From a virus (Duplodnaviria; Heunggongvirae; Uroviricota; Caudoviricetes), in the IMG/VR virus record IMGVR_UViG_2872185964_000005: a stretch of DNA of 55,490 bases, one strand, 5' to 3'. A model generated the notes under the pieces. The model was not told the origin of the DNA. It saw only the letters and a program-made list of their open reading frames with translations, and made no database searches. The position numbers and the translations under genes are program-made. This document shows, piece by piece, positions 13,782-14,073 of the stretch. How positions within the stretch are numbered: the first letter of the stretch is position 1; each line of letters starts with the position of its first letter.

Positions 13782-14073
13782 AAAATGAGAATAACCAGTT
13801 CCCTGAAGGCGACGTAGCCCGGTACAAGAGTAACCCACGTTAGCGCTTGGCGACGGCGGAACAAAGCTGATTCGCGACGTAAGAAAGTGGCAGGCTCATA
13901 TGACGGACCTCTGTAATGCGGTATCCAACCCGCGAATATCAGCGTGATTCACCGTCGGATTTACTGCTACGTCGCCCTCAGGGAATTAAACCTAAAAAGA
14001 AAATCGTCAAAATTAGAGATTCCGGTTTGACACGGAAAGTCATATCAGCGTCAACGGAGCACCGTATTGACGC

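What the first reader, a model, noticed from the sequence alone, without database searches (positions are those of the whole stretch)
13797..13985. 20-bp inverted repeat pair enclosing about 147 bp just downstream of the IS110-family gene
AGTTCCCTGAAGGCGACGTAGCC (13797-13819) and GCTACGTCGCCCTCAGGGAA (13966-13985) are inverted copies with one mismatch; the same pair is present in copy 2 (about 22403-22581). The pair could form a long stem in a transcript or be subterminal recombinase-binding repeats, as described for the IS1111 subgroup. It is not explained by any ORF.
Basis: seen in the sequence. Interest (0 to 1): 0.4.

Follow-up and report, generated by a model that had tools for sequence, protein, structure and literature searches.

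The report
Closing stem of ISSso6 bridge RNA
The inverted repeat is real. It forms the closing stem of a ~190-nt guide RNA (bridge RNA / seekRNA) encoded after the transposase gene of insertion sequence ISSso6, a type of RNA described in 2024 and already predicted for this element, so the finding is explained rather than new.

Summary
**Observation:** confirmed. Positions 13797-13818 pair with 13966-13987: 22 positions, with 20 Watson-Crick pairs, one G·U and one A·C mismatch. The same pair is in copy 2 (22397-22587, minus strand).

**Element:** ISSso6, at 12532-14048. It has 14-bp subterminal inverted repeats, a core AG and no target duplication.

**The repeat is an RNA stem.**
- All 22 pairs show compensatory changes.
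- G·U pairs occur on the plus strand only.

**What the stem encloses:**
- An internal loop whose two sides track the insertion site. Positions 13841-13848 are complementary to the target top strand (core plus +1 to +5). GUAAG at 13879-13883 equals the left target plus core. Permutation test: 0 of 20,000.
- A single-stranded AUAUCAG (13936-13942) that equals the right IS end.

**Target:** ISSso6's target is GTA-AG-CGCTA. In this window both copies sit 5 bp inside the terminal repeat of an IS66-family element (GTAAG^CGTCA).

the "stem in a transcript" reading is right. The "subterminal recombinase-binding repeat" reading is wrong; the true subterminal repeats are at 12536-12549 and 14031-14044.

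**Novelty:** Durrant et al. 2024 already list ISSso6 as an IS1111-group element with a bridge RNA in its right end. No transcript or transposition data exist for it.

The parts
12532..14048 (+). ISSso6 copy 1 (1517 bp if one copy of the AG core is counted with the right end). The flanking target halves are GTAAG (12527-12531) and CGTCA... (14049 onward).
   Evidence: Occupied versus empty sites in E. coli, in a primase gene and in the nhaA-mokC spacer: the empty site is ...GTAAGCG..., the occupied site is GTAAG|GCAGTATGAC...GTCATATCAG|CG. RefSeq annotates it as an IS110-like element ISSso6 / IS110 family RNA-guided transposase.
12536..12549 (+). Left subterminal inverted repeat, TATGACTTTCCGTG.
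   Evidence: Read from the sequence; it is the reverse complement of 14031-14044.
14031..14044 (+). Right subterminal inverted repeat, CACGGAAAGTCATA.
   Evidence: Its arms covary between relatives (for example TTTGCGTG/CACGCAAA and CTCCCG/CGGGAG).
12658..13784 (+). Copy 1 transposase gene. It is broken by three 1-nt deletions relative to the intact 375-aa gene.
   Evidence: ORF list; blastn against intact L001; NCBIfam NF033542 'IS110 family RNA-guided transposase' at 272 bits, plus Pfam PF01548 and PF02371.
13797..13987 (+). Predicted bridge RNA / seekRNA as bounded by the closing stem P1 (191 nt). The true transcript ends are unknown.
   Evidence: RNAalifold consensus on 41 relatives; covariance model R1 scores 202 bits on the plus strand and 33 bits on the minus strand.
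13797..13818 (+). P1 5' arm: the first arm of the reported inverted repeat.
13966..13987 (+). P1 3' arm: the second arm of the reported inverted repeat.
13841..13848 (+). Right-target guide on the 5' side of the internal loop (loop 13839-13849). UAGCG pairs with target top-strand positions +5 to +1, CU pairs with the AG core, and U pairs with position -3.
   Evidence: Alignment columns 60-64 are complementary to flank positions +5 to +1 in 24-29 of 33 relatives. Column 67 is complementary to -3 in 17 of 22. Permutation test 0 of 20,000.
13879..13883 (+). Left-target guide GUAAG on the 3' side of the internal loop (loop 13876-13886). It is identical to left target plus core, so it would pair with the bottom strand.
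   Evidence: Columns 107-109 are identical to flank positions -5 to -3 in 18, 20 and 21 of 22 relatives. Permutation test 0 of 20,000.
13936..13943 (+). Left-donor guide AUAUCAG, identical to the last 7 nt of the IS, plus nucleotide 13943, which tracks target position +1.
   Evidence: Single-stranded in the consensus fold. The RNA segment and the right IS end change together in distant clades. Column 171 equals target +1 in 29 of 33 relatives against 13.2 expected.
13910..13916 (+). Candidate right-donor guide (UCUGUAA), in the linker 5' of the conserved hairpin 13918-13933. Tentative.
   Evidence: The same columns read UCUGUCU in L061 and L066, complementary to AG+ACAGA of their left ends. 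The fit is weak in ISSso6 itself: 4 bp including one G·U.
13960..13967 (+). Alternative candidate right-donor guide (UUACUGC), complementary to GCAGTA of the left end. Tentative.
   Evidence: No covariation supports it in distant relatives.
14027..14032 (+). TTGACA, a candidate -35 box of a promoter formed when the ends are joined in a circle. The -10 box would be CAGTAT at 12533-12538, 17 nt away.
   Evidence: Invariant in 41 relatives; spacing read from the sequence; by analogy with ISEc11 (PMC11187229).
14049..15204 (-). Right end and truncated tnpC of the IS66-family element whose terminal repeat is the target.
   Evidence: NCBIfam NF033517 at 401 bits and Pfam PF03050. An uninterrupted copy begins exactly with GTAAGCGTCAACGG.
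22397..22587 (-). The same RNA in ISSso6 copy 2.
   Evidence: Covariance-model hit at 22396-22590 on the minus strand, 202.1 bits; sequence.

Best explanation
The 20-22 bp inverted repeat is the closing (basal) helix of a ~190-nt non-coding RNA encoded in the long 3' non-coding region of ISSso6. This RNA is the element's bridge RNA / seekRNA.

Inferred mechanism. The RNA is transcribed in the same direction as the transposase gene, probably as the 3' part of the tnp transcript or from the promoter created in the circular intermediate. It then binds the DEDD transposase. The closing helix holds together a multi-branched scaffold with two parts:

1. A long arm with an internal loop whose two sides read the target. 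The 5' side pairs with the top strand of core AG plus 5 nt to the right. The 3' side pairs with the bottom strand of 3 nt to the left plus the core.
2. Single-stranded linkers around a conserved hairpin that read the joined IS ends. AUAUCAG equals the right end.

The RNA thereby aligns the circularised IS with the 10-bp site GTA-AG-CGCTA. In this window that site is the tip of an IS66-family terminal repeat.

Shown here: the helix, its conservation and strand, and the covariation between guides and target. Inferred: transcription, processing, protein binding and the chemistry.
For: **Identity and borders**
- The element is ISSso6.
- Empty-site comparisons give the target GTAAG^CG with a shared AG.
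- The 3' non-coding region is 264 bp against 126 bp at the 5' end, and there are 14-bp subterminal repeats.

**Conservation of the RNA**
- The non-coding region is conserved at nucleotide level downstream of tnp in 46 loci whose transposase is 65-82% identical.
- A covariance model built from them finds full-length matches (E-values 1e-13 to 1e-31) at the same place in relatives with about 50% identity. These come from Alpha-, Beta- and Gammaproteobacteria, Desulfobacterota, Rokubacteria and Acidobacteriota.

**The helix**
- In 41 close relatives it is 98.2% paired. Seven pairs show double changes. G·U occurs at column pair 9/218 in 37 of 41 sequences and at 25/203 in 19 of 41.
- With distant relatives added, all 22 pairs show double changes. 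About 96% of cells are paired, against 34-46% for the whole structure when the 3' partner is slid by 1-3 columns.
- The minus strand scores 33 bits against 202 bits for the plus strand.

**Guide-target covariation**
- Target positions +1 to +5 are complementary to the 5' side of the loop in 24-29 of 33 relatives.
- Positions -5 to -3 are identical to the 3' side in 18-21 of 22 relatives.
- 0 of 20,000 permutations reach the observed totals.
- The three ISSso6 sites (GTAAG|CGCTA, CGCTG, CGTCA) fit the guides UAGCG and GUAAG.

**Donor side**
- AUAUCAG equals the right end. In alphaproteobacterial relatives AUCAGAG or AUGAGAG matches the right end ATGAGAG.

**Literature**
- Durrant et al. 2024, Supplementary Table 5, lists ISSso6 as IS1111 group with a bridge RNA predicted in the right end.
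- Siddiquee et al. 2024 show experimentally that the downstream non-coding region of IS1111-type IS yields an essential seekRNA, with the top-strand match 5' of the bottom-strand match. The order is the same here.
Against: - There is no transcript, processing or transposition evidence for ISSso6 itself. No sigma-70-type promoter was found just upstream of the RNA.
- No Rfam 15 family matches, even at E-value 10, so there is no curated model to test against.
- The right-donor guide could not be placed unambiguously.
- The most frequent natural context, the IS66 repeat CGTCA, fits the guide with one wobble and one mismatch.
- One relative (L009) does not fit on its right flank.
- The alignment used for one search was fitted to the model, which inflates the pair counts. 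The MAFFT-based counts are weaker, though they point the same way.
- Relatives are phylogenetically related, so cell counts are not independent events.
Confidence: 0.9

Rival explanations
1. The two arms are DNA-level binding sites for the transposase (subterminal repeats of the IS1111 type) or form a DNA cruciform or hairpin used in recombination.
For: IS1111-group elements do have subterminal repeats (PMC11187229, PMC11208160). An inverted repeat recognised as double-stranded DNA would also keep its symmetry in evolution.
Against: - The element's true subterminal repeats are a different sequence at 12536-12549 and 14031-14044.
- Both arms of the repeat in question lie on one side of the gene, and the 3' arm ends 61 bp from the tip.
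- G·U pairs are frequent (37 of 41 and 19 of 41 sequences at two positions). They would be A·C mismatches on the other strand, and they break DNA symmetry.
- The covariance model is strongly strand-specific, 202 against 33 bits.
Confidence: 0.03
2. The stem is only a 3' mRNA element for the transposase transcript (a terminator, a stabiliser or an RNase III site), with no guide function.
For: It lies 12 nt after the stop codon. A 22-bp helix is long enough to be an RNase III substrate (general knowledge). The shorter seekRNAs of ISEc11 are thought to be processed from a longer RNA.
Against: - No U-tract follows the 3' arm; the terminator scan found nothing there on the plus strand.
- The 147 nt inside the stem are more conserved than the protein-coding DNA, and two hypervariable patches track the insertion site. 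A simple stabiliser does not explain this.
- A processing role for P1 alongside its scaffold role is not excluded.
Confidence: 0.04
3. The downstream RNA is an independent, dispensable passenger small-RNA module, like Ssr9 downstream of the ISPpu9 transposase gene.
For: Pares-Guillen et al. 2025 (PMC12288879) report that Ssr9 is not needed for ISPpu9 transposition and moves as its own module. One relative (L072) carries two tandem copies of the RNA.
Against: - The RNA lies inside the IS borders in every locus examined, between tnp and the right subterminal repeat.
- Its loop nucleotides covary with the flanks of the whole element, which ties it to target choice.
Confidence: 0.02
4. The repeat is a chance repeat or part of an unrecognised coding sequence.
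For: ORFs of 80 and 82 aa overlap the region.
Against: - About 6e-4 such repeats are expected by chance per window (my estimate), and the fold z-score is -5.1.
- The overlapping ORFs have no Pfam hits.
- Indels in the alignment are not multiples of three, and conservation follows base pairing.
Confidence: 0.01

Closest known systems
Predicted bridge RNA of ISCARN28 and other right-end-encoded bridge RNAs of IS1111-group elements (Durrant et al. 2024, Nature 630:984, Fig. 6 and Extended Data Fig. 10; ISSso6 itself is in Supplementary Table 5)
   Same: - Encoded in the long right end, downstream of a DEDD transposase.
- The elements have long subterminal repeats.
- An internal loop reads the target, and the donor-reading nucleotides sit in a multi-loop.
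- The ISSso6 transposase is 43% identical to that of ISCARN28, and ISSso6 is listed as 'RE, IS1111'.
   Different: Nothing categorical. I found no published structure, guide assignment or target for ISSso6. The details worked out here are the 3 + AG + 5 code, GTA-AG-CGCTA as target, and the IS66 repeat as the habitual site. They are not in the texts I could read, and the figures are not held.
seekRNAs of ISEc11, ISPa11, ISKpn4 and ISPst6 (Siddiquee et al. 2024, Nat Commun 15:5235)
   Same: - A downstream non-coding region gives the RNA.
- The segment complementary to the top strand lies 5' of the one complementary to the bottom strand.
- The two matches overlap at the insertion point.
- There is no target duplication.
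- A junction promoter has its -35 box in the right end.
   Different: - Those are experimentally shown (co-purification, essentiality, reprogramming); ISSso6 is not.
- The ISSso6 transposase (375 aa) shares only local C-terminal similarity with ISEc11 and IS4321, 25-30% over about 100-130 aa. It lies outside the compact 330-350 aa IS1111 clade described there.
- The P1-bounded RNA (191 nt) is longer than their long forms (148-172 nt).
IS621 bridge RNA (Durrant 2024; Hiraizumi 2024, Nature 630:994)
   Same: - A bispecific guide RNA in which each DNA is read on both strands around a shared dinucleotide core (CT there, AG here).
- A nucleotide next to a donor guide tracks the target (13943 equals target +1), which resembles the handshake guides.
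   Different: - IS621 encodes its RNA upstream, in the left end, as two simple internal loops. Here the RNA is downstream, the order of the target matches is reversed according to Siddiquee et al., and donor reading is in a multi-loop.
- There is no detectable sequence or Rfam relationship.
IS4321/IS5075, which target the terminal repeats of Tn21-family transposons (Partridge & Hall 2003, cited in PMC11208160)
   Same: An IS1111-group element whose specific target lies inside the terminal inverted repeat of another mobile element, in one orientation.
   Different: The host element differs (IS66 family rather than Tn21 family), the target sequence differs, and the transposase clade is distant.

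Membership tests
IS110 family, IS1111 group (as defined by ISfinder, Partridge & Hall, Durrant 2024) | DEDD transposase with an N-terminal RuvC-like domain (PF01548) and a C-terminal PF02371 domain | tested here: met
   Pfam PF01548 (E-value 2.4e-11) and PF02371 (8.1e-24); NCBIfam NF033542 at 272 bits against a cut-off of 140.
IS110 family, IS1111 group (as defined by ISfinder, Partridge & Hall, Durrant 2024) | Subterminal inverted repeats of 7-17 bp, set in from the tips | tested here: met
   14-bp TATGACTTTCCGTG at 12536-12549 and its reverse complement at 14031-14044, set 4 nt in from each tip.
IS110 family, IS1111 group (as defined by ISfinder, Partridge & Hall, Durrant 2024) | The longer non-coding region lies downstream of tnp (right end longer than left end) | tested here: met
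   3' non-coding region 13785-14048 (264 bp) against 5' region 12532-12657 (126 bp).
IS110 family, IS1111 group (as defined by ISfinder, Partridge & Hall, Durrant 2024) | Sequence-specific, orientation-specific insertion without target-site duplication | tested here: met
   Two empty/occupied pairs and the IS66 context all give GTAAG|IS|CG, with only the AG core shared.
IS110 family, IS1111 group (as defined by ISfinder, Partridge & Hall, Durrant 2024) | Transposase related over its full length to IS1111-type transposases (criterion of Siddiquee et al.) | tested here: inconclusive
   Full-length similarity to ISCARN28 (43%) and IS1533 (33%), both called IS1111-type in the papers. Similarity to ISEc11 and IS4321 is only local and C-terminal, no better than to IS621. 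IS1111 itself was not compared.
Bridge RNA / seekRNA | A structured non-coding RNA encoded in the long non-coding end, conserved with covarying helices | tested here: met
Bridge RNA / seekRNA | Loop segments complementary to both strands of the target, overlapping at the core, and covarying with the target across relatives | tested here: met
   24-29 of 33 and 18-21 of 22 relatives; permutation test 0 of 20,000.
Bridge RNA / seekRNA | Segments matching both sides of the donor (the joined IS ends) | tested here: inconclusive
   The left-donor match AUAUCAG is clear and changes together with the right end in distant clades. The right-donor match is ambiguous between 13910-13916 and 13960-13967.
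Bridge RNA / seekRNA | The RNA is transcribed, binds the transposase and is required for circle formation and insertion | not testable with these tools
   This needs RNA-seq, co-purification and transposition assays. It has been shown only for other elements (PMC11187229, PMC11208160).
Rfam-curated RNA family | A match to a curated covariance model | tested here: not met
   No match for 12400-14200 at E-value up to 10 in Rfam 15. No curated family appears to cover this RNA.

The most novel reading that the evidence does not exclude
The ISSso6/ISCARN28/IS1533-like clade may use a bridge-RNA layout that has not been characterised experimentally. Its features would be:
- a 22-bp closing helix;
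- a target loop with a compact 3 + AG + 5 code;
- donor guides placed in the multi-loop on either side of an invariant hairpin;
- a single nucleotide next to the donor guide that tracks target position +1, like a handshake guide.

ISSso6 would be naturally programmed against the outermost 10 bp of IS66-family terminal repeats, making it an IS that specifically disrupts another IS. In this window, one copy with an intact transposase gene but a severed left end and one copy with intact ends but a frameshifted gene could complement each other, because both keep the RNA.
Probability: 0.3. Interest if true: 0.4.

Novelty: already known. Interest (0 to 1): 0.22.

Why it matters
The result turns an unexplained repeat into an annotated functional part of a known mobile element. 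It corrects the idea that the repeat is a recombinase-binding site.

It also gives a concrete, testable guide code for ISSso6: GUAAG and UAGCG-CU read the site GTA-AG-CGCTA. That code explains why ISSso6 is so often found at the tip of IS66-family elements in E. coli and Shigella genomes.

For annotation pipelines, it shows that a conserved ~190-nt RNA downstream of this transposase clade currently has no Rfam model. For the biology of bridge recombinases it adds only detail, not a new principle.

Tried and rejected
- **Rfam 15:** searched at gathering thresholds over the whole window and at E-value up to 10 over 12400-14200. Nothing was found at the locus.
- **Promoter and terminator scan of 12450-14150:** no promoter just upstream of the RNA and no plus-strand terminator after it.
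- **IS borders:** my first guess (12527-14050) was off by 7 bp in total. Empty-site comparison corrected it.
- **Third variable patch (13898-13903):** I looked for pairing with the 5' region 13822-13827, and for matches to the flanks or the subterminal repeats. No consistent rule emerged.
- **Right-donor guide:** UUACUGC (13960-13967) fits ISSso6 but does not covary in distant clades. The 5' linker fits distant clades but only weakly fits ISSso6. Left unresolved.
- **Symmetrical handshake position:** I tested whether the nucleotide after the left-target guide (13884) tracks the first base of the left end, by eye on the alignment. It does not.
- **Literature:** a search for ISSso6 found only genome surveys.
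- **Ssr9/ISPpu9-type passenger RNA:** considered and rejected because of the covariation between guides and target.

Full report
**1. The observation**

The repeat is in the sequence as described. The repeat finder gives arms 13799-13818 and 13966-13985: 20 nt, 95% complementary, 147 nt apart. Read as RNA, the helix extends by G13798·U13986 and A13797-U13987. That makes 22 positions, with a single A13807·C13977 mismatch.

The 221-nt segment folds at -79.1 kcal/mol against -57.3 ± 4.3 for shuffles (z = -5.1). The outer stem of that fold is the repeat.

Copy 2 carries the identical RNA region on the minus strand. By my estimate, chance gives about 6e-4 such repeats per window.

**2. The element and its borders**

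The gene upstream belongs to ISSso6. E. coli RefSeq records annotate near-identical DNA as "IS110-like element ISSso6 family transposase" or "IS110 family RNA-guided transposase". The intact 375-aa protein hits NCBIfam NF033542 and Pfam PF01548 + PF02371.

Two occupied sites in E. coli, one in a primase gene and one in the nhaA-mokC spacer, were compared with the matching empty sites:
- The empty sites read ...GTAAGCG....
- The occupied sites read GTAAG|GCAGTATGAC ... GTCATATCAG|CG.

The IS is therefore 12532-14048. The dinucleotide AG is shared by target and donor (the core), and nothing else is duplicated.

The true subterminal inverted repeats are TATGACTTTCCGTG at 12536-12549 and its complement at 14031-14044. 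The 3' non-coding region (264 bp) is twice as long as the 5' one (126 bp).

In the window, the right flank CGTCAACGGAGCACCG... is the end of an IS66-family element, with tnpC on the minus strand at 14077-15204. An uninterrupted copy of that element starts exactly with GTAAGCGTCAACGG, abutting a disrupted alkA gene. Both window copies of ISSso6 therefore sit 5 bp inside an IS66-type terminal repeat. Nineteen of the 25 best E. coli matches share this context, and the left flanks that were read (both window copies, L003 and L004) all differ.

**3. The repeat is an RNA helix**

Eighty loci encoding relatives of the transposase (48-82% identity) were fetched. The 3' non-coding region is alignable at DNA level in 46 of them.

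In a MAFFT alignment of 41 sequences, RNAalifold places the repeat as the outermost helix, P1. The pair counts on that alignment are:
- 98.2% of cells are paired.
- Seven of 22 pairs have changes on both sides.
- G·U occurs at column pair 9/218 in 37 of 41 sequences and at 25/203 in 19 of 41.
- For the whole structure, 31-41% of cells pair when the 3' partner is slid by 1-3 columns.

G·U pairs become A·C on the opposite strand. The structure therefore belongs to the strand that also encodes the transposase.

A covariance model built from the trimmed alignment (R1) gives these results:
- In the window it scores 202 bits on the sense strand and 33 bits on the antisense strand.
- It finds only the two ISSso6 copies in the window.
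- It finds full-length matches (E-values 1e-13 to 1e-31) directly downstream of tnp in relatives of about 50% identity from several phyla.

On the resulting 52-sequence alignment, all 22 P1 pairs show changes on both sides, with up to four pair types per position. About 96% of cells are paired, against 34-46% for the whole structure in the slid controls. That alignment is fitted to the model, so it overstates the case. The MAFFT-based counts point the same way.

**4. What the helix encloses**

P1 closes a multi-branched fold with these parts (window coordinates):
- Short helices at 13819-13821/13904-13906, 13828-13831/13894-13897 and 13835-13838/13887-13890.
- An internal loop with 5' side 13839-13849 and 3' side 13876-13886.
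- An apical stem-loop at 13850-13875.
- A linker at 13907-13917.
- An invariant hairpin at 13918-13933.
- A linker at 13934-13944 that contains AUAUCAG.
- A small hairpin at 13945-13957.
- A linker at 13958-13965.

The two sides of the internal loop are the only hypervariable patches in an otherwise highly conserved RNA.

**5. The variable patches read the insertion site**

An unbiased scan compared every variable RNA column with every flank position. The top signals were exactly the loop columns:
- Columns 64 to 60 are complementary to target positions +1 to +5 in 29, 28, 26, 27 and 24 of 33 relatives.
- Columns 107-109 are identical to positions -5 to -3 in 18, 20 and 21 of 22 relatives.
- Column 67 is complementary to position -3 in 17 of 22 relatives.

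Shuffling the flanks among elements never reached the observed totals, 0 of 20,000 for each guide.

For ISSso6 this means UAGCG-CU-U (13841-13848) pairs with the top strand of A-AG-CGCTA, and GUAAG (13879-13883) equals GTA-AG. The nhaA site (CGCTA) fits perfectly and the primase site (CGCTG) fits with one wobble. The IS66 repeat (CGTCA) fits with one wobble and one mismatch.

The segment complementary to the top strand lies 5' of the one complementary to the bottom strand. Siddiquee et al. report this order for IS1111-type seekRNAs.

**6. Donor side**

AUAUCAG (13936-13942) is single-stranded in the consensus fold and equals the last 7 nt of the IS.

In distant clades the right end is ...CATGAGAG, and the same RNA columns read AUGAGAG (L086) or AUCAGAG (alphaproteobacterial loci). 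Where the right end is ...CATATCAG or ...CATATCAA, the RNA keeps AUAUCAG.

Across clades, the joined ends have the form CAT-NNN-AG-NNNNN-ATG. This mirrors the 3 + AG + 5 target code.

The nucleotide after the donor guide (13943) equals target position +1 in 29 of 33 relatives, against 13.2 expected. This resembles the handshake guides of IS621.

The guide for the left-end side is not settled. The 5' linker reads UCUGUCU opposite AG+ACAGA in L061 and L066, but it gives only 4 pairs in ISSso6. UUACUGC (13960-13967) matches GCAGTA of ISSso6, but it does not covary elsewhere.

**7. Comparison with what is known**

Durrant et al. 2024 predicted bridge RNAs in 93% of IS1111-group elements, mostly in the right end, with donor-binding nucleotides often in a multi-loop. 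Their Supplementary Table 5 lists ISSso6 as "RE, IS1111".

Siddiquee et al. 2024 showed experimentally, for ISEc11, ISPa11, ISKpn4 and ISPst6, that the downstream non-coding region yields a transposase-bound seekRNA. For ISEc11 they showed that this region is essential.

The ISSso6 transposase is 43% identical to that of ISCARN28, one of Durrant's illustrated examples, and 33% identical to that of IS1533. It has only local similarity to ISEc11, IS4321 and IS621. It therefore belongs to a deep branch that ISfinder and Durrant file under IS1111.

A literature search for ISSso6 found no study of its RNA or target. Rfam 15 has no matching family.

**8. Verdict**

The repeat is real and functional-looking, and it is explained. 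It is the closing stem of the ISSso6 bridge RNA / seekRNA, not a recombinase-binding subterminal repeat.

This kind of RNA is known, and this very element was already flagged computationally. The helix, its strand and the target code are shown here by comparative analysis. Transcription, processing, protein binding and requirement for transposition are inferred from related elements.

Interest is low to moderate. The residual novelty lies in the uncharacterised architecture of this clade and in its habitual targeting of IS66-type ends.

Noticed in passing
window 22336-23766 and 25074-25165 (minus strand), with an insertion at 23767-25073: ISSso6 copy 2 is split 35 bp upstream of its start codon by an IS3-family element. 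That element has an ALIL pseudoknot hit; the equivalent E. coli loci annotate IS600. Identical copies lie near 17241 and 43900. The copy 2 transposase CDS (22602-23729) is intact at 375 aa. The RNA is identical in both ISSso6 copies.
   Followed up: partly
window 12658-13784: The copy 1 transposase gene carries three single-base deletions relative to intact copies, near 13051, 13124 and 13476. It is either a pseudogene or an assembly error.
   Followed up: partly
window 14027-14032 and 12533-12538: TTGACA in the right end is invariant in 41 relatives. When the ends are joined it lies 17 nt from CAGTAT in the left end. This is a candidate junction promoter of the kind described for ISEc11.
   Followed up: partly
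window 12527-12531 / 14049-14075; also 22309-22335: Both ISSso6 copies sit 5 bp inside the terminal inverted repeat of an IS66-family element (GTAAG^CGTCAACGG). Most E. coli copies share this context, and the four left flanks read all differ. This suggests repeated targeting of IS66-type ends, much as IS4321 targets Tn21 ends.
   Followed up: partly
window 13943: The nucleotide after the donor-matching AUAUCAG equals the first base of the right target flank in 29 of 33 relatives (13.2 expected). This resembles the handshake guide of IS621.
   Followed up: partly
window 13898-13903: This is a third variable patch in the RNA (AUAUGA here; ACGAGA, AUAGGG, AUGACA and others in relatives). I could not find its partner in the RNA, the flanks or the IS ends.
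   Followed up: partly
L072 2849-3043 and 3227-3421: A Desulfosarcina relative carries two tandem full-length copies of the RNA downstream of one transposase gene.
   Followed up: no
L013, L016, L017, L019 and others (right end ...ATCAA): Some relatives end in AA at the right junction but have AG at the left junction. Their right-target guide has U rather than C opposite that core position (34 of 41 concordant). This suggests wobble tolerance at the core.
   Followed up: partly
L009 right flank: One relative fits the left-target guide perfectly (7 of 7), but its right flank does not match the right-target guide (3 of 8). This could be an off-target insertion or a later rearrangement.
   Followed up: no
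window 31759-32271 and 41021-41206: Other Rfam hits unrelated to this finding: STnc100 (31759-31947), three tRNAs (32026-32271), C4 antisense RNA (41021-41108) and isrK (41130-41206). This combination is typical of prophage regions.
   Followed up: no
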